A stretch of 64,000 nucleotides of DNA from NCBI GenBank assembly GCA_015520605.1, contig WAPT01000001.1, forward strand, positions 5,428 to 69,427, given 5' to 3'. This document shows positions 4,857 through 55,898 of the stretch, one piece after another. Made by a program: the position numbers and the translations under genes. Position 1 is the stretch's first letter. Each line of letters opens with the position of its first letter. The notes below the pieces were generated by a model. That model was not told the DNA's origin. It searched no databases and saw only the letters and a program-made list of their open reading frames with translations. The stretch is from Nanobdellati archaeon. Its GTDB lineage: Archaea; EX4484-52; WAPT01.

Positions 4857-4913
4857 GTACGACCCCATAAGAAAATAACGCCATGCAAATGCGGAAGAAT
4901 CAGGTGATGAGAA

Positions 4914-6056: not shown

Positions 6057-6131
6057 CCTTCCAAAAATCTTTAAATAATCCAAAAACCACAGTTTATACT
6101 GTACTTCAAAAATCAAAGGAGGGGTTGAAAG

Positions 6132-7173: not shown

Positions 7174-7256
7174 ATCATCACCTCTGCAAGAGGAGTTAGC
7201 TCCTTCATCATTTTTATGATTTTCATCTTTTTTTATGATTTAATGTTTTCATAATA

Positions 7257-10440: not shown

Positions 10441-10464
10441 TTCGCTTCACCGTGCTTTCCAGAT

Positions 10465-11037
10465 TCAGCTTATTGCCTTCGCCACCTCCTCAAGGAACTT
10501 TTTCGCAAGCTCATGACTCTCTTTAGCGAGCTCCTTGCTCCTCTCAAAAAACAACGAGCCATACGCTCTGGAAATGAACTTGGATGCGTTCCTTAAAATA
10601 TCTGCCGAATCCCTGTAAGTTGGAAGTCTGGATGCTGTGATTATGAATTTTATCAGTCCGTGAGGGGAACATCTCTCCACATTTTCAGCATCACTAACAA
10701 CTCTCTCTTCCAAACTCTCAGGCATGCCTTCTTGTGCCCATACTCTGAAGTCGTGCTTTTTTATCGCGCTGCATATTGCGGCTCTCCTATCAGCAGAGAC
10801 ACTCAAATCCTTCAGAATTCGTTCTGCTGCTACAGCGCTTTCCTCAGCATGGGTCATTACATTTTTGCCATCAAAAGCAACATCATGGAGAAGGGCAGCC
10901 ACCCTCACAATCGTTTTGTTTGCTCCGACACTTTCTGCAATCTCTTCGGCAAGCTCCATCACTCTGAGCGCGTGAGGGTAACCGAAAAGAGCGTCATGCC
11001 CAAGTCTAGCCTTCACTATACGGTGTAGCTCTTCCAT
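10465..11037 (-). CDS. HD-domain phosphohydrolase
   Basis: An H...HD motif is present ('ALRVMELAEE...AALLHDVAF'). The product is 190 aa. Confidence 0.65.
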   Translation of the reverse strand: MEELHRIVKARLGHDALFGYPHALRVMELAEEIAESVGANKTIVRVAALLHDVAFDGKNVMTHAEESAVAAERILKDLSVSADRRAAICSAIKKHDFRVWAQEGMPESLEERVVSDAENVERCSPHGLIKFIITASRLPTYRDSADILRNASKFISRAYGSLFFERSKELAKESHELAKKFLEEVAKAIS

Positions 11038-14108: not shown

Positions 14109-14819
14109 TCAGCTCGCTTCTCTTGTTTCCAGCTCGAGATAATCAGCATAGCTGGGGAGGGTTATGAGAAGTTCAAACTCCGTATCATTGACCACAAGAT
14201 GTGCTATCACCCTTCCTCGCGGTAGATTATTTCCGTACATTTCGGCATAAATATAGCCTGTAGCATTTTCAAACACACTATCCACAAGGACCCTCACCGT
14301 GCCATTAAACGTAACGTTTTCCTTTAACAGTTTTACACCTGCGATGATCCTGCTCATATTTATCTGCTGCCAGTTATCGGGGGTTCCTGCCTTGGTTATG
14401 TTCACCTCAAGATATGAGTTCCTCATTGTGATCACATTCCCATTATCCACCACACTAACATCGTCACCTTCCGCTATTATGATGTTCCCTTCCCGAATCA
14501 TAGCACTCCTTGCCACAAGCGGAGTGTCTGTTTTCATCCTGAACTCTATTAGATTTGAGCGGTTATCAATGATCAGCACACCCCTCCTTATAACCAGCGG
14601 GACAACTCTGGTGGAACCCTTACCTTCAGCGATGATTTCCTGGAGCGATGTCGCGAGATCATGCATCATGGTCTTAGCACTTTCAAACGCCGCTTTGTCC
14701 CTAAGTGATTGAACGTAGGGAGTTATCGTGCTTATTAGGATTGCTATCACAACGATTGCGATGGTCATGTAGAGCGTTCCCGCAAGAAGGGGCGATACAG
14801 CCTTTCTTTTTCTCAGCAT
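14109..14819 (-). CDS. Type IV pilin-like protein with a class III signal peptide
   Basis: The N-terminus 'MLRKRKA|VSPLLAGTLYMTIAIVVIAILIST' has a basic stretch and an Ala at the putative cleavage site, followed by an about 22-aa hydrophobic segment. The mature part is beta-rich with N-x-S/T sequons. Confidence 0.5.
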   Translation of the reverse strand: MLRKRKAVSPLLAGTLYMTIAIVVIAILISTITPYVQSLRDKAAFESAKTMMHDLATSLQEIIAEGKGSTRVVPLVIRRGVLIIDNRSNLIEFRMKTDTPLVARSAMIREGNIIIAEGDDVSVVDNGNVITMRNSYLEVNITKAGTPDNWQQINMSRIIAGVKLLKENVTFNGTVRVLVDSVFENATGYIYAEMYGNNLPRGRVIAHLVVNDTEFELLITLPSYADYLELETREAS

Positions 14820-14945
14820 GATTTTTTGTTAGATTCCAACAAATATATGTGTATGTGTATTCGCGCTCAGAGTGATCTTCACGATCAATCAAGAATTGAT
14901 GGCAAGGTCGCAGCTGCTGAGATTCCGGAAATGCAAGTCCGTTTT

Positions 14946-15170
14946 TCACTTCACATGGATATCGACAATTTCACCCAGCCGGATCACAGATTTTATTATT
15001 TCTGACTTGTCGGTAAAAAGGCTTACCATTCCGTCCCTGTGTTTCTTTAATACAATCTCCACTCGTTTTTCCACCGGACTGGCAAACACAGTTCCGTTGG
15101 GAAGCTCTATTTTTTCGTAACCTTCCAGTTCCAGCTCCGGTTCATTCTTCAGCACAATCTCCACGATCAT
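14946..15170 (-). CDS. Small hypothetical protein (74 aa) embedded in the pilin-like cluster
   Basis: This is an ORF with no signal peptide and nothing overlapping it. No motif was recognised. Confidence 0.3.
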   Translation of the reverse strand: MIVEIVLKNEPELELEGYEKIELPNGTVFASPVEKRVEIVLKKHRDGMVSLFTDKSEIIKSVIRLGEIVDIHVK

Positions 15171-15292
15171 TAACTTTACTAGTAGTTAAACGTTTATAAA
15201 GATTTTAAATATTTCACACGCAACCCGCGGATCTCAAAACAGGGACATCGCGAGATATTCCCGTAGCATCATCCCTGTAGTGTGTGACCGGT

Positions 15293-15877
15293 TCAGCAGG
15301 GTGTGAGTGTTCTTGTGGTGATGATCCTGGTGTTTCCCGCAAGATCGGTGGCGATCACCACAATACCTCCGTAATATTCTGTCTTCATCTCAGCGCGGAA
15401 GCACATGTCTGTATCCACACTATATACCCTAAAAGTGATATTTGCGGGAAGCGTTATGGAATAAGTCACCTCCTCGCGTTTCACATCCCAGGGTAGAAGG
15501 GGCGATGCAAAGACAATATTCCCATTCACATCCAGATAAAAGTTGGTTGTGTTTTCATTTCCATTGAAGAAAAGAAGGTCATAACCTGTGCCGTTTCTCT
15601 CCACCTCAAAAACGAACACGCTGACATTTTCACCTCTCTCTTTTAGTAGGGAAGATACCTCATCGTAAAATGAGACCACGGCATATCCATCGGTTTGCTT
15701 ATCAGCCAGCATCGCTACCAGCGATTGGTCGAGGAATGTTCTGAACGCTTCCCTGCTCGTTGAGATGGTCAGAAAACTCGTTCTTCTTCCCATCCGAGGT
15801 ACGGTCAGCAGTGATGACAGAACGAGGATGACCATTAAAGCCCCTATGATGAGCCACTGTCCCTTCCTCACTTTCAT
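15293..15877 (-). CDS. Type IV pilin-like protein with a class III signal peptide
   Basis: 'MKVRKG|QWLIIGALMVILVLSSLL' matches the classic archaeal prepilin peptidase site (K/R-G followed by Q and a hydrophobic stretch). The start overlaps the upstream gene by 4 nt. Confidence 0.55.
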   Translation of the reverse strand: MKVRKGQWLIIGALMVILVLSSLLTVPRMGRRTSFLTISTSREAFRTFLDQSLVAMLADKQTDGYAVVSFYDEVSSLLKERGENVSVFVFEVERNGTGYDLLFFNGNENTTNFYLDVNGNIVFASPLLPWDVKREEVTYSITLPANITFRVYSVDTDMCFRAEMKTEYYGGIVVIATDLAGNTRIITTRTLTPC

Positions 15878-16503
15878 TCGATTACCACCCTGATCTCGGC
15901 GTAATTTTGAGCATCCATAACCACGGGATAATAAACCTGTGCCACGTTATCAGTATCCTGGGTGTTGTTCCCACACACAGATTCCTTTCTCACCACGATC
16001 CAGGCCGGGTTGGTGCAAGAAACGGAAAGGTATACCAGCCCCTCCAGACTGGGTGGAATTTCGATTCTGTAAAGTCTTGTGACCGTATAGTTCCCGAGTG
16101 TTGTGGAATTAACCTTAAAAAAGCACGATGTCAGGGTGGTCTCCACCGGGATGACGTCTATGTATGCTGTTTCGTTCTCCGCTATAATAAGATTAAGGGA
16201 TGTGGAAAGGTTCGCAACTATGGCTTTTAAGCTCAGCATACCGATGTCAACATAGACCTTTTTTACCCCCACGTACGGTTGAACTATTCTCTTTATGCCT
16301 CCGGCATCACAGCTGATGGTATAATTTTGCAGCAGTGAAGCCCGTGCTGCGAAATCCATAATCTTCGAAAGCTTTTCGGTGTATATCCAATTGTCCCCCG
16401 TTTCTTTTTCCGGTAGAAGCAGCCACACCACAAAAGAGATAAGCAGCATTCCTGCTATAACACCCTCAATTATGTGAATGTAGCCCTTACGTCCTATCTC
16501 CAT
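15874..16503 (-). CDS. Type IV pilin-like protein with a class III signal peptide
   Basis: 'MEIGRKG|YIHIIEGVIAGMLLISFVVWLLL' shows R-K-G then a hydrophobic stretch containing a Glu, as in pilins. It overlaps both neighbours by 4 and 10 nt. Confidence 0.5.
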   Translation of the reverse strand: MEIGRKGYIHIIEGVIAGMLLISFVVWLLLPEKETGDNWIYTEKLSKIMDFAARASLLQNYTISCDAGGIKRIVQPYVGVKKVYVDIGMLSLKAIVANLSTSLNLIIAENETAYIDVIPVETTLTSCFFKVNSTTLGNYTVTRLYRIEIPPSLEGLVYLSVSCTNPAWIVVRKESVCGNNTQDTDNVAQVYYPVVMDAQNYAEIRVVIE

Positions 16504-17693
16504 AACCTGATCACCATATCGACCGGAGTTATTGTTCCGTTCTCATAAAGCAATATGCCGGTGTATTTTCTCACCCAGATGTTGGTGAAGAGAGGTTCCT
16601 TTTTCCCGAATGTGAAATTCCCGATGGTTACATTGAAATCGAAGCCTGTAACCCCCGAGTCCTCCTTTATTTTCTCATATGTGCTGTTCTTGATGCTGTT
16701 TAACGTGTTATCGCTCCAGATTCTCAACAAATAACGTCCTGCAACCGCCGTGGAGGAGTTGGTGAACAGCAAATTCTCACAATCTCCACAATTAACAGCA
16801 CCATCACAGAAGTATATTTCTGTTCTTTTTGTGTTCTCAAAGCTCACCCGTATGGTCAGGGTTCCAACCCTTACATTGCATGCGGAACTGTCGGTCAGAA
16901 AGTTCATGTTTACGCCCGTGTTGGTATCGTAAAGGGAAATGAAACCGGTGCTCACAGCATAATTCCAGCCGTTTACCAATGTGGTTGATGATGACCCATC
17001 ATACAATGTATCAAAGTCCCTTACAAGCACGAATGTGTAATTCTGGGGGTTCTCGGATATCAGCCATAGTCTCGGTGAGTAGGCATCCATGATGAGTTCC
17101 GTTGTGTTGAAGTCCAGCTCGATGAACGAGCACCCGTAGATAGAGCGCTGAAAGTTTGAGGGCATGAGCACGGGTTGAAATAGATAATTTGTGCCGTTGA
17201 AGTCCAGGGACGTTATGGAAGCTGTGCCGTATCCCACTTCTAGATACGTGTTCAGTATGCTATTCGTCCCTTCCCCGAGGTCGGACACGCATCCGTATGT
17301 TTTTATATCCCCGGAAGATACGCAGAGAAACGGCAATCCCGTGGTCACCACACTCCTTATTTTCCCGTCATGCACACCGACGGGAAGTGTTCTATTTTTC
17401 TGAAAGCATGTGGTTATGGATGAGTTAGCGGCTGTAAACTCAACTGGGTAATGCTCAACGCGGCATCCATTCACGACCCCCATATATGCCTCTGCGTCCG
17501 TGCTGAAAGCTTCGGCGACCCTTAGTATCTGGGCTGCCGCTAATCCTGGATCGTGTCTCTGAAAGGTGACCAGATACTTCGCGTTAAGAAATTTTAATGA
17601 AATTGTGAGCGTTGTCAGAAAGATGATCATTGCCAGAGTCCATTCAAAATATGTTGTGGCCTTTCTCGAATCTCTTATGGTTGTTCTTCTCAT
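16494..17693 (-). CDS. Type IV pilin-like protein with a class III signal peptide. This is the largest member at 399 aa and carries many N-glycosylation sequons.
   Basis: 'MRRTTIRDSRKA|TTYFEWTLAMIIFLTTLTISL' is the signal region. Sequons include NSS, NRT, NGT, NYT and NTT. Confidence 0.5.
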   Translation of the reverse strand: MRRTTIRDSRKATTYFEWTLAMIIFLTTLTISLKFLNAKYLVTFQRHDPGLAAAQILRVAEAFSTDAEAYMGVVNGCRVEHYPVEFTAANSSITTCFQKNRTLPVGVHDGKIRSVVTTGLPFLCVSSGDIKTYGCVSDLGEGTNSILNTYLEVGYGTASITSLDFNGTNYLFQPVLMPSNFQRSIYGCSFIELDFNTTELIMDAYSPRLWLISENPQNYTFVLVRDFDTLYDGSSSTTLVNGWNYAVSTGFISLYDTNTGVNMNFLTDSSACNVRVGTLTIRVSFENTKRTEIYFCDGAVNCGDCENLLFTNSSTAVAGRYLLRIWSDNTLNSIKNSTYEKIKEDSGVTGFDFNVTIGNFTFGKKEPLFTNIWVRKYTGILLYENGTITPVDMVIRLWR

Positions 17694-17716
17694 GCTCCCA
17701 AAACCCCCTCCTCCCG

Positions 17717-18277
17717 TTATCTTATTCTTATGTTTATCATAGTCGAATTGTACACCTTCCCTTCATTTCTCAATACAAGCGTTGTGGATCCCTCCGATAA
17801 AAACAGATTTCTTTCGAATGAACACGATTCGCACGGTATCATGATCCTGATCACAAAGTCTTTCGATAACCAGTCCTGCCCGTACCCGAACGTCGGGACG
17901 GCATCATCCGGAACCTCGCCAAAGTAAATGGACTTGCTCCTCCTTTCTATCTTTGAGTTATCTTTGGCTGTAAAAAAAATGTACATCTTGGATTCCAGTG
18001 GAGTAACAACGCTAACACCTGCTGATGTGTTCTGCCAGCTGGAATTATAGGTGGAGAAAAGCAGGATTCCGGCAGAATAGCTGTCAGTATTTCCGTAAAC
18101 TAAGGGTACCTCATCGCTCCTGTGGGTTTCGGTGAAGTTGCTCAAAATTTCAACTGAAAGCGACCGTGCTGAGATGTTCTGCGCCTTAACAAAGACGGAC
18201 AAGAGCGTGATGAGCACAGCTCCGACTATGACAAGCATGAATGAGATGAGAAGCGCTGAAGCTCTTGCTGTTTTCAT
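17717..18277 (-). CDS. Type IV pilin-like protein with a class III signal peptide. It is the first gene of the cluster.
   Basis: 'MKTARA|SALLISFMLVIVGAVLITLLSVF' is the signal region. Its promoter must lie in the 44-65 nt divergent gap at 18278-18342. Confidence 0.5.
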   Translation of the reverse strand: MKTARASALLISFMLVIVGAVLITLLSVFVKAQNISARSLSVEILSNFTETHRSDEVPLVYGNTDSYSAGILLFSTYNSSWQNTSAGVSVVTPLESKMYIFFTAKDNSKIERRSKSIYFGEVPDDAVPTFGYGQDWLSKDFVIRIMIPCESCSFERNLFLSEGSTTLVLRNEGKVYNSTMINIRIR

Positions 18278-25762: not shown

Positions 25763-27427
25763 ATGGTGTTTTGTGCGAGAGGGATTTATGATAAAGTAAT
25801 GATTGTAGGTATCGTATTGTCTGTCATTTTTTGCGCTTCCACCGCGTTCGCACTCGAGAACCATAATTTAATGTTCTGGAATGGTGATATGCAAATATTC
25901 TTGAACAAAAATGTCTATTCTGCCGGAGAGAATCTAAAAGCGACAATCAGAATTTCTAATGGTGAGAATTATTTTATCACGGATGGAAAAATTGTTATTG
26001 AGATTGTGTACGGATGTGACACGCCCACATATCCTGCGCAGGTTTCCGATTGCGACGATGTTATTTACGAAAAGGTGCTTAGAGACATTCACATCCCTCC
26101 GAAAGGAAACAGAGAGATAAATTTCAGCTACTCATTACCGCAGGATCTGCGTGAGGGTACCTACAGGGTTGACGCATACTTTACTGCAAATAGAGCACCG
26201 GTAAAGGGGATTCACTTCATCTTTCTGCCGGGAGCTTATCAGGACTTCCGGGTGGAGAACACGGCGGGAGACTACCCATCTTTGAAGATACTGAGGACAA
26301 AAACAGTTTTTAATGGTGAGCGTGGACAGGTCGCTGCTCCGGTCCAGCCGGGTGGTGTGATCAACGGGACTGTGTGGGTTGAAGCTCTCGACGACAGCGC
26401 GATAGGTAAGAACTACATGCTGAGATTGCGGTTGTGTTCATGGGATGACACCAACTGCGATGGATATAACCTAACGAAACGGTTTTATCTGGACTCGAAA
26501 GTTCAAAGTATATGGGTGAAAATGAAAGCCCCGACCAAACCGGACGCATACGCCATAAGAATTGAGATAGTGGATGAAAACGAGAGGTTGCAGTCCCTTT
26601 ACAGAAGCAGGATAATCGTGACCGGGATAACGGCCAAGATAAGGAAGGTTCAGCTCGCTTCAGTGGTGTTGAGGAAAGGTACACCCACGGAACTCAATGT
26701 GCTTGTGGGTACATCTCCGGATCATTATACCGAACCCGAGGTTAGAAATGTTGTTTGTGCGGTGAAGATCACCGATAAACCATCCGAAAAACTTGTGTTT
26801 ACTGGTAAAAAGACCATAGAAAAACTCTCTTCAAAAGACAACATAATTTTCGTTCCCCTGAGTTTCTCGATAACCCCGAACACGGATACGAAAAATTTCA
26901 GGGTGTGTATCGAGCTGCGTTCTGAAGCGGGAAAACTTTTTGATAAATATTGTTTTGATGTGAACGCCAACGACTATAAGGATGTACTTCTACCCGATTA
27001 TAGTGCCAAGCTTTTGAAATACTTTGAGAACAACCGCACAGCGGTGCTTGAAGTCTGCGCTAGGTACAGCATTATTGATAAGGATGCCAACATAATGGCC
27101 GATCTTCTTCTTTACAAAAATAACGGAATCATAAAAATGGTTCGCAATGTTAAAATAAATGGATGTAAGCTGTTCTCCTTCGATAAAATTGAGGGAGAGC
27201 CTGGCGTTAATTACACGTTGGTTTTAAACGATAAGGTAAACGATCTGCAGTATATTTTTAACTTCTCACCACGGAGCGCTTCAGAAAATACGGCAGTTCC
27301 GGCATCCCGGGAACAGAGGACGGGAATCGGTAACGGTAAACTTGTGCTGTGCATAATGTCCCTTGTCGCTGTCGTGGTTATTATCGCTTTTATCATGAGG
27401 AACTGGAAAGGTGGTGAAAATGCATGA
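25763..27427 (+). CDS. Secreted, C-terminally membrane-anchored surface protein (554 aa). It is translationally coupled to the downstream giant gene.
   Basis: An N-terminal signal or TM segment reads 'MIVGIVLSVIFCASTAFALE'. The body is beta-rich. The C-terminus 'LVLCIMSLVAVVVIIAFIMRNWKGG' is a TM anchor with a basic tail. The last 17 nt overlap the next ORF, and AT content is higher than the local average. Confidence 0.5.
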   Translation: MVFCARGIYDKVMIVGIVLSVIFCASTAFALENHNLMFWNGDMQIFLNKNVYSAGENLKATIRISNGENYFITDGKIVIEIVYGCDTPTYPAQVSDCDDVIYEKVLRDIHIPPKGNREINFSYSLPQDLREGTYRVDAYFTANRAPVKGIHFIFLPGAYQDFRVENTAGDYPSLKILRTKTVFNGERGQVAAPVQPGGVINGTVWVEALDDSAIGKNYMLRLRLCSWDDTNCDGYNLTKRFYLDSKVQSIWVKMKAPTKPDAYAIRIEIVDENERLQSLYRSRIIVTGITAKIRKVQLASVVLRKGTPTELNVLVGTSPDHYTEPEVRNVVCAVKITDKPSEKLVFTGKKTIEKLSSKDNIIFVPLSFSITPNTDTKNFRVCIELRSEAGKLFDKYCFDVNANDYKDVLLPDYSAKLLKYFENNRTAVLEVCARYSIIDKDANIMADLLLYKNNGIIKMVRNVKINGCKLFSFDKIEGEPGVNYTLVLNDKVNDLQYIFNFSPRSASENTAVPASREQRTGIGNGKLVLCIMSLVAVVVIIAFIMRNWKGGENA

Positions 27428-30400
27428 ATCGAAAAACATGATGGGTGTCGGAATCATTATTTTGGTAAGCATGTTTTTTGGCATTGCGATTAGCTCGAAA
27501 ATTTCCTTTGGGTGGTGGAATGATGATTGGAAATACAGGATACCGATAAACGTGAGCTATGATGGATCCTCAGAGATCGATAATTATCAGCTCAAATTGG
27601 TGATCAATTATCAGGAGGGCATGCAATGCGATTTTCGAGACATACGGTTCACACAAGTTATTAACGGTGATGAGATCGAGATCCCCTACTTTATTGAGAA
27701 TTATACTGATTGTCAAGAAGCATTTGTTTGGATTAAGATGATAAAATTGACTCCCGGAGAAAATACAGTGTATCTTTATTTTGGAAATCCTAATGTTTCC
27801 TCAAAGAGTTCCAGTAGCGATGTGTTCCTCGGAAAAATAAGCAACGTTGCCGGGTGTTGGTACTTTGATAAAGAGACAAACAACATCGTCATAGATTGTT
27901 CGGGAGTGGGGAACCCGATGACTCTGTACAATGGTGCTACCCTGGGGGATGGAAAATACGGATATGCCCTCGAGCTGGACGGCAATGACGATTATGCAAG
28001 CTCAGACCTTAACGGAATCAACTTCCAAAAAAATGAGATCGCAATCCTCTTCTGGTTGCTTGATGATATGGAAAGCAATGGCAATAGGGAATGGTTTATA
28101 AATAAGCTGACCACTCAACCTTCCACGGGTTTTGGATTTTATACAACAGACACAGACGAGAACAACCTTAGAAGGCTCGTTTTTTCTGTCGGTAGTACTG
28201 CGGCTTCCAAAGAAGTCAGCATCATGATACCGTCTCACACATGGGTGAGTGTTGGGGGAGTTGTAAGACTCTATAACTCCACCCATTATAGGGTTGAGTT
28301 ATGGATAAACGGGAGTATGGTTAATTATACCTACATAGAAGACGCCTCGCTTAAACTGGAGAATACGGAGCCGCTAACGATAGGTATGTTCAACAACAGC
28401 TTCTATGCTTACGGAAGGGTGGACGAGCTCTATATTTTCAACACATCTTTAGACGGAAACACTATAGAACAACTTTCGGTTGCTCGCGGTGTGGTTCTGC
28501 CAGAAGAGCCGCTAACCTTATATCTTACACAATACGCATCCCCGCAGCCAGCATACACCATCGGAGCCATCGAGAAGTATCTCAAAGCTGTTGGTGAGCC
28601 ATGTACAAGTGACGACGAATGTGAAACTGGACACTGCGCTGTCGATTACGATGGGAATGGGGCATGGTGCATGCCCAAAACATCCTGTGCTCATAATGGT
28701 ATAGAGTATAAGGACGGTAGCTATGCACCGGAGTGTTTATCCAAGACATCCACATGGAAATGTTCTGCTGGAACATGGCAGGAATTCAATTGTGGCAGGT
28801 GGAGTGTGTGTAAGAGCGGAAAATGTTTATTGAAGGATAGTGATGGGGATGGTGTTCCGGATAGGGACGATCTGTGTCCCGGAACTCCGGCTGGGTGTAA
28901 AGTGTATGCCAACAATGGATGTCCGAAGGTACCGTTCAAATACCACATAAAAAACAATATATCCTCATCATGTCCCGGATCTTCCATACCCGTAGATCCC
29001 GAGCACTACTGTCTGAGCACATCCCAAGACCCAAAGATCAAATTTTATGTTGGGACCGTGCTTGCAAACTCTGAGCCCTACTGCGATCCTCTGTATGGCA
29101 CTGAGGGATGGCATGATGTAGAAGACGGAAGAAATTATTGCGAATTCCCAATCCCTGTAAGCATAAACCCCGGAAAATACACATTGTATGCCGAGTATGA
29201 GCTTGGGGGGAGAACCTACAAGGATGTCGTAGAGTCCGGGTTCGTGGTGAAAAGTTCGTGTTCCACGAGAACCCGATGTAACCATGGGGGGCACATGGAA
29301 TCCAACCCCACGTACAACATCGCATTCTCTAACGGCCAGTGTGAGGTGTCCGGAGGCATCTATTATTGTAAGAACGGAACCACCGTTTCACTAACCTCAA
29401 TATCCAGAGTTGTCCCGCACTGTAGTGATGGTGCATACGCGTCAGCAAGACCTCCTGGATTGCTCGCATGGGTGTATTCCGGTAACGTATTTTTGGCTGA
29501 AAAAGACAACAAGTACGCTGGATGTTCGCTGTGGAATCCTTCAGTTAACGACAGGAGATATTTATTCAGTCTAAAAGTTGGGTTTAGGTGGGCGTGCAAC
29601 ATTGGATGGGCAAGCGGGGCGAAATACAACCATATAAACAACATATACACATTTAAAAAACCTGGCAAATACATGCTTTACGTTGATTTGATAAACGCTG
29701 TGTGTGATTCTCCAGATTATATCTGTCCGACCAACTGTAGTGGATACAAGTGTTTATGCTACATAGGAACTATGAAAGGTGATCAGTGGGGGTTCCTAAA
29801 CCTCGGAAAATACGAAATTGCGGTAGTTGACCCAGAGCTGAAGTTTATAAGCACTCCCAGTAGCCCCATCAAACTGGATGGGTCTCCATCGATAACCTTG
29901 ACATGGAAAATCAGGAATACCGGCATTGGCGATATCGACGTTAAAGTAGCTCCCGTATGTCCGGCGGGGTGGAAATGCGTGGTTGATCCAACCCGTGTCA
30001 GAAATGTGAAGGAAAACAACAATGTTACAATTACACTCACGGTCTACAACAAAAAGCCACCGGCAATGGTAAATGCCAAGCGGATTCCAGTTGGAATAAA
30101 CATAAGTTATTTTGATTCTTACGGACTCTATCCAGAAAAAAGAACAGGAAATTCCGTAATTCTCATCCTAGATAATCGGCCCCCGGTCGTGGGGTTCAGC
30201 GCACCTTCGGGATATGGCTGGAGCGCTTCGGATCTGCCATTCAAAATAACCTGCGATGACAACCCATACACCAGCTACGGAACTTATGGCGGATGCAATA
30301 AAATATATTATCTGGTCGTGAATTCGTCTCAAAAATGTCCGCAGGATCTGAACAGTTATAAAGTATATTCATCTAACCCTCAGGAGACGCTAACGTTTTT

Positions 30401-31415
30401 GGGCAAAATAACATGCCCTGAAGGAACCGTTTGCAAAAAGAAGGTCTGCTATGCGGCGGAAGACAGATTTGGGTACAGGAGTCCGATAACTGCTAGCGAT
30501 GAGTTCAGGATTGATAAACAGCCACCGGTCATCAACGCCACGGTTCTACCCTCCCCTGTGCTCTCATCGTTCGGCCCAGAGAAAGAAAAGGTCTTCATCA
30601 TTTTAAGATGTGACGATGGTGACGGGAGCGGATGTGCTATAACTAAAATCTCCAGCACAGCACTTTTCTCCTCCAAACCATGTGAGTTGCAAGGAGATGG
30701 CGAGACCATATGCGAATTTATCGCTCCCGACTGTACTGGTTTAATCAGCAGAACACAGCCCTATTCTGTAGAAAGTGAAGACATGGTTCACAATTCAATT
30801 TCACATACTTACGAATATGAAGTCAAATTTAATACAGGATGCAGTTGTTACACAGGCAACGAATGTTATAGCGGTTCTTGTGTTGATGGTAGATGTAAGG
30901 GGGTTATAAATGTAACGCAGGGAGGAAATGTTGTTCAACCACAACGACCTTCATCCAACCCGATCGAAGTAAATATTTCACACACGTCCCTTCGGTTGAT
31001 GGTTGGGGAGGTTTATCGGGGAGTTATAGATGTCAAGAACAACAATAACTTCATGGACACTGTTGTGCTACACATAAACACCAATCCCGAATATCCATGG
31101 AAACACTGGGTGTATTTTGAGGGTGAAAAATTCTCCATGAACGGTGATCAGTTCGTTATCAACCTGAAGGGCGAGGAGGAAAGGAGAGTTGTGTTTATAA
31201 TAGAACCCAACATGGTAACCATTTCGCCGATAACCGTGAATATTACCGCTGAAGGTTTGATCTCTGGAGGAAAGTCAACACAAACCATGAAAGTGGATGT
31301 TGTGGCACATGGAAGCAACGGGGCAAAAAGTTCACTACCTGGAATTGAGTTTTACAATGTATGGGTGATCGCACTGATGGCTGCGTTCCTCTCCTATTTA
31401 AATTTCCGGAAATAA
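27411..31415 (+). CDS. Giant (1334 aa) cell-surface protein with DUF2341-like, LamG/ConA-like, thrombospondin type 3-like and cysteine-rich modules plus a C-terminal TM anchor
   Basis: 'WKYRIPINVS...DFRDIRFT' matches the DUF2341 pattern. 'LELDGNDDYASS' is LamG-like. 'DSDGDGVPDRDDLCPGTPAG' is a TSP3-like Ca-binding repeat. Multiple Cys-rich blocks follow, and the C-terminus is 'LPGIEFYNVWVIALMAAFLSYLNFRK'. Confidence 0.55.
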   Translation: MVKMHESKNMMGVGIIILVSMFFGIAISSKISFGWWNDDWKYRIPINVSYDGSSEIDNYQLKLVINYQEGMQCDFRDIRFTQVINGDEIEIPYFIENYTDCQEAFVWIKMIKLTPGENTVYLYFGNPNVSSKSSSSDVFLGKISNVAGCWYFDKETNNIVIDCSGVGNPMTLYNGATLGDGKYGYALELDGNDDYASSDLNGINFQKNEIAILFWLLDDMESNGNREWFINKLTTQPSTGFGFYTTDTDENNLRRLVFSVGSTAASKEVSIMIPSHTWVSVGGVVRLYNSTHYRVELWINGSMVNYTYIEDASLKLENTEPLTIGMFNNSFYAYGRVDELYIFNTSLDGNTIEQLSVARGVVLPEEPLTLYLTQYASPQPAYTIGAIEKYLKAVGEPCTSDDECETGHCAVDYDGNGAWCMPKTSCAHNGIEYKDGSYAPECLSKTSTWKCSAGTWQEFNCGRWSVCKSGKCLLKDSDGDGVPDRDDLCPGTPAGCKVYANNGCPKVPFKYHIKNNISSSCPGSSIPVDPEHYCLSTSQDPKIKFYVGTVLANSEPYCDPLYGTEGWHDVEDGRNYCEFPIPVSINPGKYTLYAEYELGGRTYKDVVESGFVVKSSCSTRTRCNHGGHMESNPTYNIAFSNGQCEVSGGIYYCKNGTTVSLTSISRVVPHCSDGAYASARPPGLLAWVYSGNVFLAEKDNKYAGCSLWNPSVNDRRYLFSLKVGFRWACNIGWASGAKYNHINNIYTFKKPGKYMLYVDLINAVCDSPDYICPTNCSGYKCLCYIGTMKGDQWGFLNLGKYEIAVVDPELKFISTPSSPIKLDGSPSITLTWKIRNTGIGDIDVKVAPVCPAGWKCVVDPTRVRNVKENNNVTITLTVYNKKPPAMVNAKRIPVGINISYFDSYGLYPEKRTGNSVILILDNRPPVVGFSAPSGYGWSASDLPFKITCDDNPYTSYGTYGGCNKIYYLVVNSSQKCPQDLNSYKVYSSNPQETLTFLGKITCPEGTVCKKKVCYAAEDRFGYRSPITASDEFRIDKQPPVINATVLPSPVLSSFGPEKEKVFIILRCDDGDGSGCAITKISSTALFSSKPCELQGDGETICEFIAPDCTGLISRTQPYSVESEDMVHNSISHTYEYEVKFNTGCSCYTGNECYSGSCVDGRCKGVINVTQGGNVVQPQRPSSNPIEVNISHTSLRLMVGEVYRGVIDVKNNNNFMDTVVLHINTNPEYPWKHWVYFEGEKFSMNGDQFVINLKGEEERRVVFIIEPNMVTISPITVNITAEGLISGGKSTQTMKVDVVAHGSNGAKSSLPGIEFYNVWVIALMAAFLSYLNFRK

Positions 31416-38726: not shown

Positions 38727-38802
38727 GCCCCCGTAGCTCAGCAGGTAGAGCGCGCGGCTGTTAACCGCGTTGTCCCAGGTTCGAGTCCTGGCGGGGGCGC
38801 CA
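38727..38802 (+). tRNA. tRNA-Asn (anticodon GTT) with encoded 3' CCA
   Basis: Folded manually. Acceptor stem is GCCCCCG/CGGGGGC, D arm GCUC..GAGC, anticodon stem CGCGG/CCGCG with loop CUGUUAA, and T arm CCAGG-UUCGAGU-CCUGG. The discriminator is G, followed by CCA. Confidence 0.9.
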
Positions 38803-38909
38803 TTTTGCTACTTCTAAAAATGATTAAAGAATTGTGCAAATTTTTCGAAAATTATAAACGTCACTTGCCGAAATAATTTCTCGTTAAATAACGAAAAATT
38901 TATATATTT

Positions 38910-39614
38910 ATGTGGAAAAGTAATTGTCTCATGCGCAGAACAAAGATAATATGTACGATAGGTCCGGCATCCCAACACCTCATAGAAGAGTTAAAACAAG
39001 CTGGGATGGATGTTGCAAGGATAAACACTGCATACACCGATGATGTGAATATAGGCTTCAGGGATGTGCTGATTGATGTAAGGCACTGGAGCGTTCTCGA
39101 GAGGCTGGAACTTCCAGAGAATGCCACCATTGCGCTCTCCTTTGTCAGGAGAAGATCATGCTTGGAAAACGCAAGAAAGATTGTTGATCTGCCAATTTGT
39201 GCCAAGATAGAAACAATGGAAGCTATCCAGAACTTGGAGGACATTGTGAAGGAAAGCGACATGATCATGATTGCCAGAGGCGATCTCGGTAAAGAGTTCG
39301 GAATTCATATGGTTCCGATGCTACAGCAGAGAATAATAGAGGTATGCAACCGCTATGACAAGCCATTCATAGTCGCAACGGAAGTACTTAAATCCATGGT
39401 TAATAACGCTGAGCCAACAAGAGCTGAGGCGGTGGATGTTTTCAATGCTGTGAATGCGGGCGCATGGGGGATCATGCTGGCTGAAGAGACTGCAATAGGA
39501 AATTATCCTGTTGAGACGGCGAGATGGCTCGACGTTCTCATAAGAGCTGCCGAAAACCATAGGGAAGGCGGGTGTTTAGCTTTAAGTTTGCCACCGAGAT
39601 CTCCCACAGGATAA
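38910..39614 (+). CDS. Minimal pyruvate-kinase-like TIM-barrel protein lacking the B (lid) and C-terminal domains. The start is probably the Met at 38931.
   Basis: 'TKIICTIGPAS' is the PK N-terminal signature. 'CAKIETMEAI' (K/E), 'MIARGDLG', 'ATEVLKSM' and 'NAVNAGAWGIMLAEETAIGNYP' are also present. The 234-aa length leaves no room for the B or C domains. Confidence 0.55.
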   Translation: MWKSNCLMRRTKIICTIGPASQHLIEELKQAGMDVARINTAYTDDVNIGFRDVLIDVRHWSVLERLELPENATIALSFVRRRSCLENARKIVDLPICAKIETMEAIQNLEDIVKESDMIMIARGDLGKEFGIHMVPMLQQRIIEVCNRYDKPFIVATEVLKSMVNNAEPTRAEAVDVFNAVNAGAWGIMLAEETAIGNYPVETARWLDVLIRAAENHREGGCLALSLPPRSPTG

Positions 39615-39911
39615 CAGGACATTACAAAAAAGACGATTGTGAGCACCCACAAGCCATAGCATGAACGAGATAGCAAAAGTGAAAGGGGATTACTCACGAC
39701 CAATGGTGTTCTAATCAACACAGGTGGATATTTTTGATCGATGATAGGATAATCTGTTATTTTTATACCAGTAAATATTCTTTCTTGGTGAGTGTTGCAT
39801 TAAGCTATAAAACCGTTCACCGTCGTGAGGCGATGCGTCCTTTTTCAACTTACCTCCACGGTGATTTAAATTAAACAAGGTGACATATGCAGTATTCAAT
39901 TGATTGATTCC

Positions 39912-39929
39912 CTATAAATTTAAAAATAA
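39912..39929 (+). promoter_or_regulatory. Candidate TATA box (ctataaatttaaaaataa) for tRNA-Phe
   Basis: This A/T box lies about 23-40 nt upstream of the mature tRNA 5' end. Confidence 0.35.
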
Positions 39930-39951
39930 TCAGAGAAAAAATCATCCTAGC

Positions 39952-40028
39952 GGGGCGGTAGCTCAGCCTGGGAGAGCGCGCGGCTGAAGACCGCGGTGTC
40001 CGGGGTTCGAATCCCCGCCGCCCCACCA
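39952..40028 (+). tRNA. tRNA-Phe (anticodon GAA) with encoded 3' CCA
   Basis: Folded manually. Acceptor stem is GGGGCGG/CCGCCCC, D arm GCUC..GAGC, anticodon stem CGCGG/CCGCG with loop CUGAAGA, and T arm CGGGG-UUCGAAU-CCCCG. The discriminator is A, followed by CCA. Confidence 0.9.
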
Positions 40029-48229: not shown

Positions 48230-49375
48230 TTACTCCATCCTTCCTTTGTCCAAGATGTGCATAAGCTCATCGAGAGGTATCCTTGCGATACACGCAAAGG
48301 AATCTGCTGCTCCGTAGGAAATCAGAATGCTGTCATCAACTTTAACGGCTCCGCAAGGGAAGATGGTGAGGGAATTATCGCCGAAGAGTTCGTAGGGCTC
48401 ACGCGGGCTCATTATGTAAAAAGGTGTGATCGCCTCCACTTCCATATTATTTCTGTTCATTAACATCGCGAACACGCTGTATCTCTCCAACTCCCTCTCC
48501 ACCGCATGAAGAAAGATCAGGAGCTTCCCGTCAATTTCAAGCGGAGGTGTTCCCCACCCGACCTTGTCCTCAAACCTCTCCTGCAGCAGTATTTCTCGAG
48601 TGTTCTTAACTTCAATCTCCTTTAGCCCTGAAGAGTTGAAATCGATTCCATCAACACCGCTCACTAACATGGAAAATCTACCCCTAAGATCGTGGGCTCT
48701 GTGAAAGAACATTACACCGTCTTTACTTCTCACAAAAAATGCATTTTTGTTGGACACAATACCAAGCTTTCTCGTTGATTCCTCCCCGAAATCGGTTGCG
48801 AATTTTTTCACCCATTCACCTTTCTCGAGTACTGCGGTAACCGGTATTGTTCTTCTAAGGGCTCCCCGAATAAAATAATTGTGAGTCCTGCCCGTGTAGG
48901 TCATTAGGAGTTTGTTGTCCATCCAGTAAACCCTTGGATCCTCAGCACCCATCACATCGTATTTGGTGTTCGGGTAGGTTACGATTTTTGCCCTCCATTT
49001 ATCTCCGTTCTTTTCTTTTTGGTCTAGCTCAACAATCCCGCTGACGTATCTGTAGTAGCCAATAACAACCCTCGCATATATTTTGAGGGCATCATCCACA
49101 AGGACTACGGATGGGTTGAATATTGCTGCGGGTCTGGAAACGGGGAAGTTTTCTATCACAACTTTTTCAGAAGAGATCACAACCTCCCTTTTGGCTATAT
49201 CTTTAGTTGTGTTTTCCCTTCTACCTCTTAAATCCAGAAAGGTGGGGAATGCGGATCCGGGAGTGCTTCCATCTTCAGCTTTTAGCCCTCCCATCCTATC
49301 CACGCTTCCATAGCCATAATTATTGTTATAATTTCGTGCACAATATGCTGTACACGAACGTGTTTTGCACACCAC
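48230..49375 (-). CDS. GH130/DUF377-family beta-propeller glycosidase or phosphorylase
   Basis: 'IFNPSVV', 'GAEDPRVYWMDN' and 'KVGWGTPPL' blocks are typical of GH130/DUF377. The start lies 5 nt after the MinD stop. Confidence 0.5.
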   Translation of the reverse strand: MVCKTRSCTAYCARNYNNNYGYGSVDRMGGLKAEDGSTPGSAFPTFLDLRGRRENTTKDIAKREVVISSEKVVIENFPVSRPAAIFNPSVVLVDDALKIYARVVIGYYRYVSGIVELDQKEKNGDKWRAKIVTYPNTKYDVMGAEDPRVYWMDNKLLMTYTGRTHNYFIRGALRRTIPVTAVLEKGEWVKKFATDFGEESTRKLGIVSNKNAFFVRSKDGVMFFHRAHDLRGRFSMLVSGVDGIDFNSSGLKEIEVKNTREILLQERFEDKVGWGTPPLEIDGKLLIFLHAVERELERYSVFAMLMNRNNMEVEAITPFYIMSPREPYELFGDNSLTIFPCGAVKVDDSILISYGAADSFACIARIPLDELMHILDKGRME

Positions 49376-55064: not shown

Positions 55065-55898
55065 TTGAAAATTCAGATGCCGAAACATCTGGAGTTTGTG
55101 GAGATCGATAGTGAGGCTCCTGAAAAAATCTTTGTGGATGGAAAGGAGATTATTGGTGATGTGAGGAGATTCAAAGAAATGGCAACGCTTTACTACGACA
55201 ACATGGGGGATTGGGTAGACAACATGGACTTCAACACATCCCTCTACTACATGTTCAGGAACGTGTGCAAGGAGGAAGATCGCGCTAACATCGCTAATCA
55301 CAAGCTGAGGTATGATATCACCATAATGCTTCCCCTCCGCTTTGGTTCCGGGCCAAAGGAATACAACAAGACGGTCGGACATTATCATCCCATAGTTCCG
55401 GGTGCGAGGATCAGCTATCCAGAACTGTATGAGGTTATCCATGGGGAGTGTTACTTCATAATCCAGAAGGTGCGCAACAAATATGAAGTGGTGGATGCGC
55501 TGATTATAAAAGCTGAGAGGGGTGACAAGATCATAATACCTCCCGATTATGGACACGTGATGGTGAACAGCGGAAGGGAGCTTTTGATTACTGCCAACTG
55601 GGTCTCCTCAGCATTCTCCAGCATTTATGAGCCCTACCGGGAGATGAAAGGTGCGTGTTACTACATTCTTGAGGAGTATCTTCAACCCAAGATAGTCAAA
55701 AACGAGGCTTACGACAACGTACCTGAACCAAAAATCGTCAGAAGCAGGGCTCACGAATTTTTAAAGATCGGAAAGGACGAATCCATGTACAGACTGGCCA
55801 AAGAGCTTGAGAAGCTGGATTTCCTCAACCATCCACAAAACCATCCCGCGCACTTTAACCCTTCAGTAATTTTTGAGGTCTTCCACCAGACTTCCTGA
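55065..55898 (+). CDS. Cupin-type glucose-6-phosphate isomerase (cPGI-like) with an N-terminal extension
   Basis: 'TVGHYHP...ELYEVIHGECYFIIQ...IIIPPDYGHVMVNSGRE' matches the cupin PGI metal-binding signature T-x-G-H-x-H...E-x-Y...H. Confidence 0.55.
   Translation: MKIQMPKHLEFVEIDSEAPEKIFVDGKEIIGDVRRFKEMATLYYDNMGDWVDNMDFNTSLYYMFRNVCKEEDRANIANHKLRYDITIMLPLRFGSGPKEYNKTVGHYHPIVPGARISYPELYEVIHGECYFIIQKVRNKYEVVDALIIKAERGDKIIIPPDYGHVMVNSGRELLITANWVSSAFSSIYEPYREMKGACYYILEEYLQPKIVKNEAYDNVPEPKIVRSRAHEFLKIGKDESMYRLAKELEKLDFLNHPQNHPAHFNPSVIFEVFHQTS

What the first reader, a model, noticed from the sequence alone, without database searches (positions are those of the whole stretch)
38727..40028. Minimal pyruvate-kinase-like barrel protein (no lid, no C-domain) sandwiched between tRNA-Asn and tRNA-Phe
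ORF 38910-39614 (234 aa) begins with the pyruvate kinase hallmark TKIICTIGPAS. It retains the A-domain catalytic blocks: K/E in CAKIET, MIARGDLG, ATEVLKSM, and NAV..G..GIMLAEETAIGNYP. The B/lid domain is precisely and in-frame absent, since RINTAYT runs straight into ALSFVRRR. The entire C-terminal allosteric domain is also missing. A size of 234 aa is far below any functional PK of about 450-480 aa. The product could be a stand-alone PEP/pyruvate-binding TIM barrel with another function such as a lyase or mutase, or a domesticated fragment. It lies in a 1.3 kb segment bounded by two tRNA genes, which are classic integration hotspots. A 337-nt AT-rich non-coding stretch follows it.
Basis: partly seen in the sequence, partly recalled or inferred. 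Interest (0 to 1): 0.55.

Follow-up and report, generated by a model that had tools for sequence, protein, structure and literature searches.

The report
Lidless single-domain pyruvate kinase homologue
This gene encodes a roughly 227-residue pyruvate kinase homologue that keeps the catalytic barrel but has lost the lid and the regulatory domain, and it belongs to a large, apparently unstudied family in tiny-genome (DPANN) archaea, which asks whether the "essential" lid is dispensable.

Summary
An intact ORF (38910-39614; the real start is probably ATG 38931, giving 227 aa) sits between tRNA-Asn and tRNA-Phe.

- **It is a pyruvate kinase relative.** It matches only the PK barrel (Pfam PF00224, E 1.6e-49). 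It aligns to PK residues about 4-50 and 190-341.
- **What is missing.** The B (lid) domain and the C (allosteric) domain are absent. In this clade helix alpha2 is absent too.
- **The barrel is complete.** AlphaFold gives a confident eight-stranded barrel (pLDDT 93.9).
- **It is not a truncation or artefact.**
  - The exact protein occurs on 7 independent contigs.
  - dN/dS against a 92% relative is 0.11, like its neighbours.
  - A profile search returned 120 of 120 top hits of 208-259 aa, from Nanoarchaeota, Woesearchaeota and Pacearchaeota MAGs.
- **The active site is kept.** The PK catalytic residues are invariant across 120 family members.
- **A parallel exists in CPR bacteria.** They carry lidless, C-less PK barrels fused to phosphoglycerate mutase, in both gene orders. 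This ties lidless barrels to lower glycolysis.
- **The tRNA "integration hotspot" idea is not supported.**

The best reading is a minimal, unregulated PEP-to-pyruvate phosphotransferase (about 0.55). A changed activity remains possible. I call it a new variant of a known kind.

The parts
38727..38802 (+). tRNA-Asn (GTT), upstream neighbour. Not functionally linked to the ORF.
   Evidence: ARAGORN. Rfam tRNA 70.6 bits. The same arrangement is seen in L081.
38892..38906 (+). Putative archaeal BRE/TATA promoter element (CGAAAAA-TTTATATA). It would give a leaderless or near-leaderless transcript starting at about 38929.
   Evidence: Sequence read. The 38803-38909 region is about 96% identical to L081, although dS of the flanking genes is about 0.34. 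This is an inference, not tested.
38931..39614 (+). Coding sequence of the lidless single-domain PK homologue (227 aa from ATG 38931; the mechanical ORF starts at 38910 and gives 234 aa).
   Evidence: ORF list. Pfam PF00224 E 1.6e-49. The exact 227-aa protein is in public collections on 7 contigs. AlphaFold pLDDT 93.9, pTM 0.89. dN/dS 0.115.
39018..39035 (+). Strand beta2 motif R37-I-N39-T-A41-Y42, equivalent to canonical R72-x-N74-F-S76-H77. Arg and Asn are kept. The K+-ligand Ser is replaced by Ala (Lys in most of the family). His is replaced by Tyr.
   Evidence: Alignments to PK. Family conservation.
39027..39065 (+). Loop (residues 40-52) that replaces helix alpha2. This extra deletion is specific to the window clade.
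   Evidence: DSSP of the model shows no helix between E35-39 and E53-57. Broad-family member P0296 has alpha2 at H37-48. P0023 carries the longer segment here in the alignment.
39066..39092 (+). Strand beta3 (V53-L-I-D56-V-R58) and the junction where the B (lid) domain is inserted in canonical PKs. D56 corresponds to canonical Asp112.
   Evidence: Model strand E53-57. The profile aligns family 'iliDiks' to 2e28 'ILLDTKG' ending at residue 70, then resumes at residue 185. D56 is invariant in 120/120.
39204..39212 (+). K99-I-E101, equivalent to catalytic Lys269 and the Mg2+ ligand Glu271 (rabbit muscle numbering).
   Evidence: Offset taken from the alignment to 1a49 and related chains. Invariant in 120/120.
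39276..39290 (+). R123-G124-D125-L-G. D125 corresponds to the Mg2+ ligand Asp295.
   Evidence: R, G, D and L invariant in 120/120.
39375..39383 (+). A156-T157-E158. T157 corresponds to the proton-donor Thr327. E158 replaces canonical Gln328 and is a family signature.
   Evidence: E in 96% of short forms; Q in 88% of full-length PKs.
39480..39509 (+). L190-A-E-E193-T-A-I-G-N-Y-P motif. E193 corresponds to Glu363. A191 replaces Ser361 in this clade only.
   Evidence: E193, G197 and P200 invariant; position 191 is Ser in 103/120 and Ala in 17/120.
39615..39951 (.). 337-nt non-coding spacer. The 3' two-thirds (39730-39951) are conserved against L081. It contains the likely tRNA-Phe promoter. It holds no PK remnant.
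39952..40028 (+). tRNA-Phe (GAA), downstream neighbour.

Best explanation
The ORF encodes a naturally minimised pyruvate kinase homologue. It is a single (beta/alpha)8 barrel, the PK A domain, without the B 'lid' domain, without the C-terminal allosteric and tetramerisation domain, and in this clade without helix alpha2.

It is a vertically inherited housekeeping gene of an uncultured hydrothermal-vent archaeon. Submitters named the close relatives Nanoarchaeota (DPANN). It belongs to a large DPANN-wide family of proteins of about 225 aa.

**Proposed mechanism (inferred, not shown)**
- PEP and Mg2+ bind at the C-terminal mouth of the barrel.
  - Binding uses R37, K99, E101, G124/D125 and T157, which correspond to Arg72, Lys269, Glu271, Gly294/Asp295 and Thr327.
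- The phosphoryl group passes to a nucleoside diphosphate held on an open, lidless site.
- T157 and E193 protonate the enolate to give pyruvate.
- With no C domain and a relaxed PTRAE interface segment, the enzyme would be constitutive (non-allosteric), and at most dimeric through the A-A interface.
- The usual K+ site is remodelled. Ser76 becomes Lys in most of the family and Ala here. A basic residue sits at or near position 114/117.
- The enzyme is therefore probably independent of K+.
For: **Identity as a PK barrel**
- Pfam PK barrel E 1.6e-49.
- PDB PKs E 1e-40 to 1e-31, aligned in two blocks that skip PK residues about 51-189.
- Foldseek: all 50 listed hits are PKs, with TM-score (normalised to the query) 0.73-0.81 and best rmsd about 2.4 A.

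**Complete barrel**
- AlphaFold2 gives pLDDT 93.9 with 8 strands.
- The family representative P0296 gives pLDDT 91.9 with 8 strands and all helices.

**Real and selected**
- dN/dS is 0.115 at dS 0.34, against 0.10 and 0.045 for the neighbouring genes.
- The identical protein is found on 7 contigs from separate samples.
- 16 close clusters share 55-92% identity.
- The profile search gave 120/120 top hits of 208-259 aa with PF00224 only.

**Catalytic residues**
- R37, N39, D56, K99, E101, G124, D125, T157 and E193 are invariant in 120/120.
- 41 of the 65 aligned A-domain positions that are at least 85% conserved in canonical PKs (two further such columns fall in this protein's short C-terminal tail) are kept at 85% or more.

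**Link to glycolysis**
- At least 120 clusters of CPR-bacterial proteins fuse a B-less, C-less PK barrel to dPGM, in both orders.
- The window encodes sugar catabolism genes: GH38, GH130 and cupin-type PGI.
- A Pacearchaeota 'pyruvate kinase' was among the few DPANN proteins seen in a vent metaproteome (PMC11537232). Its length was not verified.
Against: - No enzyme assay exists for any member.
- From my knowledge of PK structures, the B domain supplies nucleotide and phosphate ligands (Arg119, Lys206) and closes over the site. A lidless enzyme may be a poor kinase or may hydrolyse PEP.
- Family-specific active-site changes hint at altered chemistry or acceptor: S76K/A, H77Y and Q328E.
- NCBIfam PK equivalog scores are far below their cut-offs (207 against 306 bits).
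- No conserved glycolytic neighbours were found.
- I could not test whether the same genomes also carry a canonical PK, or whether they have enolase.
- A preprint reports that PK-annotated genes occur in Pacearchaeales that lack upstream glycolysis.
- The CPR fusions are a separate lineage. They keep Gln328 and a short stub in place of the B domain.
Confidence: 0.55

Rival explanations
1. Neofunctionalised barrel. The protein still binds PEP, pyruvate or oxaloacetate with Mg2+ but no longer works as an ADP-dependent kinase. Possible activities are oxaloacetate decarboxylase (a known side activity of PK that needs no nucleotide), PEP phosphatase, or PEP-dependent phosphorylation of a different acceptor.
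For: - The lid and its nucleotide ligands are lost.
- Family-wide substitutions occur at active-site positions: S76 to K, H77 to Y and Q328 to E.
- PK-annotated genes are reported in Pacearchaeales that cannot make PEP by glycolysis (preprint).
- There is no glycolytic gene neighbourhood.
Against: - Every residue specific to phosphoryl transfer and enolate protonation in PK is invariant.
- The TIGP motif and an aromatic residue at the His77 position are kept. From my knowledge, these line the nucleotide pocket.
- Lidless PK barrels are fused to phosphoglycerate mutase in CPR bacteria.
- There is no significant similarity to aldolase, lyase or mutase members of the superfamily.
Confidence: 0.25
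2. The barrel is one subunit of a split enzyme, or needs a partner. Another protein would supply lid-like or regulatory functions in trans. Alternatively it has a non-catalytic (binding or regulatory) role.
For: - Nanoarchaeota are known for split genes (my knowledge).
- The loss of alpha2 in the window clade might expose a surface (speculative).
- A Peptidase_M24 gene recurs nearby in three lineages.
Against: - No B- or C-domain-like ORF exists anywhere in the 64 kb.
- Neighbourhoods differ between lineages and are made of informational genes.
- The missing piece is internal, which is unlike known split genes.
- Strict conservation of the catalytic residues argues for catalysis.
Confidence: 0.1
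3. The short ORF is a pseudogene or an assembly or sequencing artefact, that is, a truncated remnant of a full-length PK.
For: - It is half the length of characterised PKs.
- Its scores are below the NCBIfam cut-offs.
Against: - The frame is intact and dN/dS is 0.11.
- The identical protein occurs on 7 independent contigs.
- More than 120 clusters share the same architecture across NCBI, JGI, ENA and Logan assemblies.
- The fold is confident and complete.
- No remnants of the missing domains are found.
Confidence: 0.02
4. The gene is cargo of a mobile element integrated between or at the tRNA genes.
For: It is flanked by two tRNA genes and by AT-rich spacers.
Against: - No integrase is present, and there are no att-like direct repeats.
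- GC and GC3 are close to those of the surrounding genes.
- The locus is syntenic in a relative at dS 0.34.
- Family members elsewhere are not next to tRNAs.
- The window clade is monophyletic inside a DPANN family.
Confidence: 0.03

Closest known systems
Canonical pyruvate kinase (EC 2.7.1.40), for example G. stearothermophilus 2E28, M. tuberculosis 5WRP, rabbit muscle 1A49
   Same: - The A-domain TIM barrel is shared: 35-50% identity over the barrel, TM-score about 0.8, rmsd about 2.5 A.
- The PEP/Mg2+ catalytic residues are all present: Arg72, Asn74, Asp112, Lys269, Glu271, Asp295, Thr327 and Glu363.
   Different: - There is no B lid domain (PK residues about 71-184 are missing) and no C domain (PF02887 absent).
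- The window clade also lacks alpha2.
- Changes at Ser76, His77 and Gln328.
- The PTRAE interface segment is relaxed.
- The length is about 225 aa, against 450-600.
Engineered B-domain-deleted human liver PK (PDB 7QDN)
   Same: The barrel lacks the lid and still folds. It appears among the Foldseek hits (rank 40).
   Different: - 7QDN is a laboratory construct that keeps the C domain.
- I could not find activity data for it.
- The window protein is natural and also lacks the C domain.
B-less PK barrel fused to phosphoglycerate mutase in CPR/Patescibacteria (P0263, P0385, P0402 and others, found here)
   Same: - A natural PK barrel without the lid and without the C domain, in an ultra-small-genome lineage.
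- In the NJ tree, P0263 falls on the same side of the split as the short forms (weak support).
   Different: - It is bacterial.
- It is fused to dPGM.
- It keeps alpha2, a stub of about 20 residues at the B site, and canonical Gln328.
- The RxN-to-ARGD spacing is 128 aa, against 97 aa in the DPANN short forms and 207 aa in full-length PKs.
B-less PK that retains the C domain (P0028, 381 aa)
   Same: The same clean excision of the lid. It aligns in one HSP to window 38931-39566 (42% identity, E 1.5e-44).
   Different: It has PF02887. It may represent an intermediate architecture.
HpcH/HpaI aldolase / citrate lyase beta family (PF03328) and other PEP/pyruvate-domain barrels
   Same: The same superfamily fold, a similar size, and no lid.
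   Different: Only a sub-threshold local match (E 0.019, 14.7 bits against a cut-off of 25). The catalytic constellation is that of PK.

Membership tests
Pyruvate kinase family (Pfam PF00224 barrel; EC 2.7.1.40) | Significant match to the PK barrel domain model | tested here: met
   169.2 bits against a cut-off of 30, E 1.6e-49, in two stretches.
Pyruvate kinase family (Pfam PF00224 barrel; EC 2.7.1.40) | Catalytic residues Arg72, Asn74, Asp112, Lys269, Glu271, Asp295, Thr327 and Glu363 (rabbit muscle numbering) | tested here: met
   They correspond to R37, N39, D56, K99, E101, D125, T157 and E193. All are invariant in 120/120 short forms.
Pyruvate kinase family (Pfam PF00224 barrel; EC 2.7.1.40) | B (lid) domain inserted between beta3 and alpha3 | tested here: not met
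   The alignments skip PK residues about 51-189 or 71-184. The model goes from beta3 directly to a short alpha3.
Pyruvate kinase family (Pfam PF00224 barrel; EC 2.7.1.40) | C-terminal alpha/beta domain (PF02887) carrying the effector site and the C-C tetramer interface | tested here: not met
   No PF02887 hit. The protein ends about 15 residues after alpha8. No remnant is found in the window.
Pyruvate kinase family (Pfam PF00224 barrel; EC 2.7.1.40) | Score above the NCBIfam equivalog cut-off (TIGR01064 pyruv_kin) | tested here: not met
   206.9 bits against a cut-off of 306.4. The other PK models are also below their cut-offs.
Pyruvate kinase family (Pfam PF00224 barrel; EC 2.7.1.40) | Monovalent-cation site ligand Ser76 (K+-dependent type) or Lys117 (K+-independent type) | tested here: inconclusive
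   - Ser76 is replaced by Ala here and by Lys in 101/120 family members.
- The position aligned to 117 is Ser here and Lys in 67/120.
- R58 occupies position 114.
- The register after beta3 is inferred.
Pyruvate kinase family (Pfam PF00224 barrel; EC 2.7.1.40) | PEP + ADP to pyruvate + ATP activity | not testable with these tools
   This needs an enzyme assay.
HpcH/HpaI aldolase / citrate lyase (PF03328) | Match to the family model above the gathering score | tested here: not met
   14.7 bits against a cut-off of 25, E 0.019, over 39 residues only.
tRNA-targeted integrated element / genomic island | Integrase, att direct repeats derived from the tRNA 3' end, atypical composition, patchy presence | tested here: not met
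   - No integrase in the flanks.
- The only repeat is the similarity between the two tRNAs.
- GC 46.5% against 45% for the window.
- The locus is syntenic in relatives.
DPANN short PK-like family (defined here) | About 205-260 aa, PF00224 only, beta3 joined directly to alpha3, signatures NT(K/A)Y, ATE(M/V)L and ML(S/A)EETA | tested here: met
   The window protein aligns end to end with 119 members. Its clade is monophyletic in the NJ tree.

The most novel reading that the evidence does not exclude
The lidless barrel is not a glycolytic kinase. It is instead a PEP-driven phosphotransferase, or a PEP/oxaloacetate-processing enzyme, with a new acceptor or reaction.

Examples:
- a promiscuous regenerator of (d)NTPs from (d)NDPs for nucleotide-scavenging symbionts;
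- a phosphoryl donor to a protein partner, by analogy with the lid-free PEP-utilising barrels of PPDK and Enzyme I.

In that reading, DPANN archaea (and in parallel CPR bacteria) evolved this activity during genome reduction.
Probability: 0.25. Interest if true: 0.8.

Novelty: new variant of a known kind. Interest (0 to 1): 0.6.

Why it matters
**For enzymology.** By textbook structural enzymology (my knowledge), PK catalysis needs the B domain to close over the active site, and its regulation and tetramer need the C domain. A large natural family that has dropped both while keeping every catalytic residue under purifying selection raises two options. Either the barrel alone suffices for PEP-to-pyruvate phosphoryl transfer, or the PK active site has been recruited for something else. 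Either answer would be informative, and it can be tested directly with a 227-aa thermostable protein.

**For metabolic reconstruction.** These proteins are variously annotated 'pyruvate kinase' or 'hypothetical'. They fall below curated model cut-offs. Published statements about whether DPANN and CPR organisms can make ATP by substrate-level phosphorylation therefore depend on how this family is counted.

**For evolution.** The parallel lidless-PK fusions to phosphoglycerate mutase in CPR bacteria suggest convergent, or horizontally shared, minimisation of lower glycolysis in ultra-small cells.

Tried and rejected
**Searches that failed or were unavailable**
- The genome-contig scan with the family alignment was swamped by ordinary bacterial PKs. 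The scan was wasted.

**Literature**
- I found no paper on natural B-less PKs, on activity of the engineered delta-B PKL, or on the CPR PK-PGM fusion.
- The library lacks most subscription journals, so absence there is not proof.
- The supplement of PMC11537232 did not show whether the proteomically detected Pacearchaeota PK is the short form.

**Ideas tested and rejected**
- Conserved operon partner: rejected. Neighbourhoods differ between lineages.
- Island at a tRNA: rejected.
- Structured ncRNA in the conserved 39730-39951 spacer: no support. Fold z-scores are -1.2 and -1.1, and there is no Rfam hit.
- Split or frameshifted PK: rejected.

**Weak evidence**
- The NJ tree gives only weak support (branch 0.005) for a single origin of the short forms.
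- The MAFFT placement of the beta3/alpha3 segment inside the B-domain columns in A2 is arbitrary. I relied instead on the profile alignment and the models.
Full report
**1. Observation**

The window carries the ORF as described: 38910-39614, plus strand, 234 aa, with the quoted PK motifs. tRNA-Asn(GTT) lies at 38727-38802 and tRNA-Phe(GAA) at 39952-40028. The 337-nt spacer 39615-39951 is non-coding, with 36.5% GC against 45% for the window.

The probable start is the second ATG, at 38931.
- The exact 227-aa product MRRTK... is what the public collections hold. The 234-aa version is not in them.
- A BRE/TATA-like CGAAAAA-TTTATATA at 38892-38906 abuts ATG 38910. It would start transcription at about 38929, giving a leaderless mRNA (sequence; inference).

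**2. What it is**

The protein matches only the pyruvate kinase barrel model.
- Pfam PF00224 gives E 1.6e-49. HpcH/HpaI gives only E 0.019, below its threshold.
- NCBIfam PK models hit, but far below their cut-offs: 207 against 306 bits for TIGR01064.
- Against solved structures, it aligns to M. tuberculosis PK residues 4-50 and 190-341.
- A profile of the wider family aligns to G. stearothermophilus PK residues 3-70 and 185-341. Family 'iliDiks' pairs with canonical 'ILLDTKG'.

So strand beta3 is present, and what is excised is the B (lid) domain. The C-terminal domain (PF02887) is entirely absent.

The AlphaFold2 models agree.
- The window protein gives pLDDT 93.9 and pTM 0.89.
  - It has eight strands: 12-16, 35-39, 53-57, 73-76, 96-100, 118-122, 153-156 and 187-190.
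  - It has no helix alpha2; residues 40-52 form a loop. Helix alpha3 is short, at 60-64.
- A member of the broader family (P0296) gives pLDDT 91.9 with the full set of eight strands and helices, including alpha2.
- In Foldseek against the PDB, all 50 listed hits are PKs.
  - TM-score normalised to the query is 0.73-0.81, and the best rmsd is about 2.4 A.
  - The list includes the engineered B-deleted human liver PK, 7QDN.

Those residues supply beta3 and alpha3 and keep the barrel closed.

**3. Not a truncation, artefact or island**

- tblastn with seven full-length PKs finds no B- or C-domain remnant in any frame of the 64 kb.
- The identical protein is encoded on 7 contigs from independent samples.
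- Against a relative at 92% identity (L081), dN/dS is 0.115 at dS 0.34. This is the same regime as the neighbouring glycosyltransferase (0.10) and tRNA-splicing endonuclease (0.045).
- The locus is syntenic in those relatives, in the order GT4, tRNA-Asn, PK-like, tRNA-Phe, EndA, GlyRS.
- The gene's GC matches the window.
- The only flanking repeat is the mutual similarity of the two tRNAs.
- Family members in other lineages are not beside tRNAs.

**4. A large family**

- The first search found 16 clusters of 212-245 aa at 55-92% identity.
- A profile search then returned 120 of 120 top hits of 208-259 aa carrying PF00224 only.
  - Submitters named them Nanoarchaeota, Woesearchaeota, Pacearchaeota or 'archaeon', plus one Omnitrophota MAG.
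  - They annotated them either 'pyruvate kinase' or 'hypothetical'.
- Some sit on contigs of 0.4-0.6 Mb.
- Neighbourhoods are informational or housekeeping genes and differ between lineages. A Peptidase_M24 gene recurs nearby in three of them.
- In a neighbour-joining tree of barrel columns, all 120 short forms fall on one side of a split.
  - Only seven other sequences share that side. They include a B-less but C-containing PK (P0028) and a full-length PK that shares the 'NTKH' motif (P0189).
  - The supporting branch is very short.
- The window clade (motif DVRHW, alpha2 lost) is monophyletic. It is the most reduced form.

The host is an uncultured archaeon.
- The window encodes TBP, MCM, Topo VI, GatDE, EndA and FtsZ.
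- It also encodes sugar-catabolic genes: GH38, GH130 and cupin-type PGI.
- Sample names point to deep-sea hydrothermal vent metagenomes (my inference).

**5. Active site**

Numbering uses the offsets, in rabbit muscle numbering.

| Window residue | Canonical residue |
|---|---|
| R37 | Arg72 |
| N39 | Asn74 |
| D56 | Asp112 |
| K99 | Lys269 |
| E101 | Glu271 |
| G124/D125 | Gly294/Asp295 |
| T157 | Thr327 |
| E193 | Glu363 |

- All of these are invariant in 120/120 members, as is the TIGP motif.
- Within the aligned A domain, 65 positions are at least 85% conserved in canonical PKs (two further such columns fall in this protein's short C-terminal tail). Of these 65, 41 are kept at 85% or more in the short family.
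- The systematic changes are:
  - Ser76 to Lys (Ala in the window clade);
  - His77 to Tyr;
  - Gln328 to Glu.
- Constraint is relaxed in the PTRAE segment and at the DGxD aspartate.
- From my knowledge of PK structures, those two regions serve the subunit interface and allostery. Their relaxation fits the loss of the C domain.
- Ser361 is kept in most members and is Ala in this clade.

**6. Function**

Shown: a folded, selected barrel of PK type, with the PEP/Mg2+ and proton-relay residues intact.

Inferred: it still converts PEP to pyruvate with phosphoryl transfer to an NDP, constitutively and without K+ or effector control.

Independent support comes from a 'Rosetta stone'.
- In CPR bacteria, at least 120 clusters encode a B-less, C-less PK barrel fused to a cofactor-dependent phosphoglycerate mutase.
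- The fusion occurs in both domain orders.
- The RxN-to-ARGD spacing is 128 aa in these fusions, 207 aa in full-length PKs and 97 aa in the DPANN short forms.
- This links lidless PK barrels to lower glycolysis.

A Pacearchaeota 'pyruvate kinase' was one of very few DPANN proteins detected in a vent-chimney metaproteome (PMC11537232). I could not confirm that it is the short form.

Several points count against the kinase reading.
- The lid normally supplies phosphate ligands and shields the site (my knowledge).
- The substitutions near the cation and nucleotide site could mean a different acceptor or reaction.
- A preprint notes PK-annotated genes in Pacearchaeales that lack upstream glycolysis.
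- No glycolytic neighbours are seen.

I put the minimal-kinase reading at about 0.55, a changed activity at about 0.25, partner-dependence or a non-catalytic role at about 0.1, and artefact or island at 0.05 or less together.

**7. Comparison and novelty**

It works like, and descends from, pyruvate kinase. It fails two architectural criteria of the family (the B and C domains) and the curated equivalog thresholds. I file it as a new variant of a known kind rather than a plain member.

I found no paper describing natural lidless PKs or the CPR PK-PGM fusion in the searchable library. That library is incomplete.

The specific window gene is one member, the most reduced clade, of this family.

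**8. Verdict**

Interest is 0.6.

Noticed in passing
window 39730-39951 and 38803-38909: These intergenic stretches flanking the gene are about 90-96% identical to the relative L081, although synonymous sites of the neighbouring genes have diverged (dS about 0.34). Indels break the small ORFs there. The window also has about 90 extra nucleotides at 39615-39730. I found no Rfam hit and no significant fold (z -1.2 and -1.1). They may be promoters or an unrecognised small RNA.
   Followed up: partly
P0263, P0385 (PK-PGM order); P0402, P0490, P0436 (PGM-PK order); L100 46-1494: CPR/Patescibacteria encode at least 120 clusters of a B-less, C-less pyruvate kinase barrel fused to cofactor-dependent phosphoglycerate mutase, in both domain orders. 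I found no publication on this.
   Followed up: partly
L098 4887-7193 (JGI 3300025150 Ga0210057_1000023); the same in L099: The short PK gene (6001-6699) lies exactly between an RsmB/F-type RNA methyltransferase ORF (4887-5999) and a separate ORF that is the PUA domain of that methyltransferase (6696-7193). It looks as if it was inserted into a split gene.
   Followed up: no
L085 8674-9678, L087 8904-9944, L098 7237-8259: A Peptidase_M24 gene (methionine aminopeptidase or prolidase type) lies next to, or one gene away from, the short PK gene in three divergent lineages. It is absent at the window locus.
   Followed up: no
P0028 (381 aa): This PK lacks the B domain but keeps the C-terminal PK_C domain. 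It is a possible intermediate architecture between full-length and single-domain forms.
   Followed up: partly
P0121 (1051 aa): A protein combining PK barrel sequence with an adenylate kinase domain, that is, another fusion of PK with a nucleotide-handling enzyme.
   Followed up: no
L086 10634-10709 (minus strand) against the ORF at 10001-10738: The called short-PK ORFs P0014 and P0015 carry a C-terminal tail (GFEPG...PEAGVLTKLDYGP). This tail is read-through across a tRNA-Pro gene on the opposite strand. The real protein probably ends earlier, or the genes overlap.
   Followed up: partly
window 27411-31415: A 1334-aa ORF. Its counterparts in L081 and L089 (about 1,330 aa) carry DUF2341 and Laminin_G_3 domains. 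It is probably a large surface protein, upstream of the RIO1, KH, Topo VI, UbiA and GT4 genes.
   Followed up: no
window 1117-3726 (minus), 48230-49375 (minus), 55065-55898 (plus): Genes for GH38 alpha-mannosidase, GH130 (mannoside phosphorylase type) and a cupin-type glucose-6-phosphate isomerase. The organism appears to feed mannosides or hexoses into glycolysis.
   Followed up: partly
window 14109-18277 (minus strand): A run of five ORFs (236, 194, 209, 399 and 186 aa) with no Pfam match at E 1e-5.
   Followed up: no
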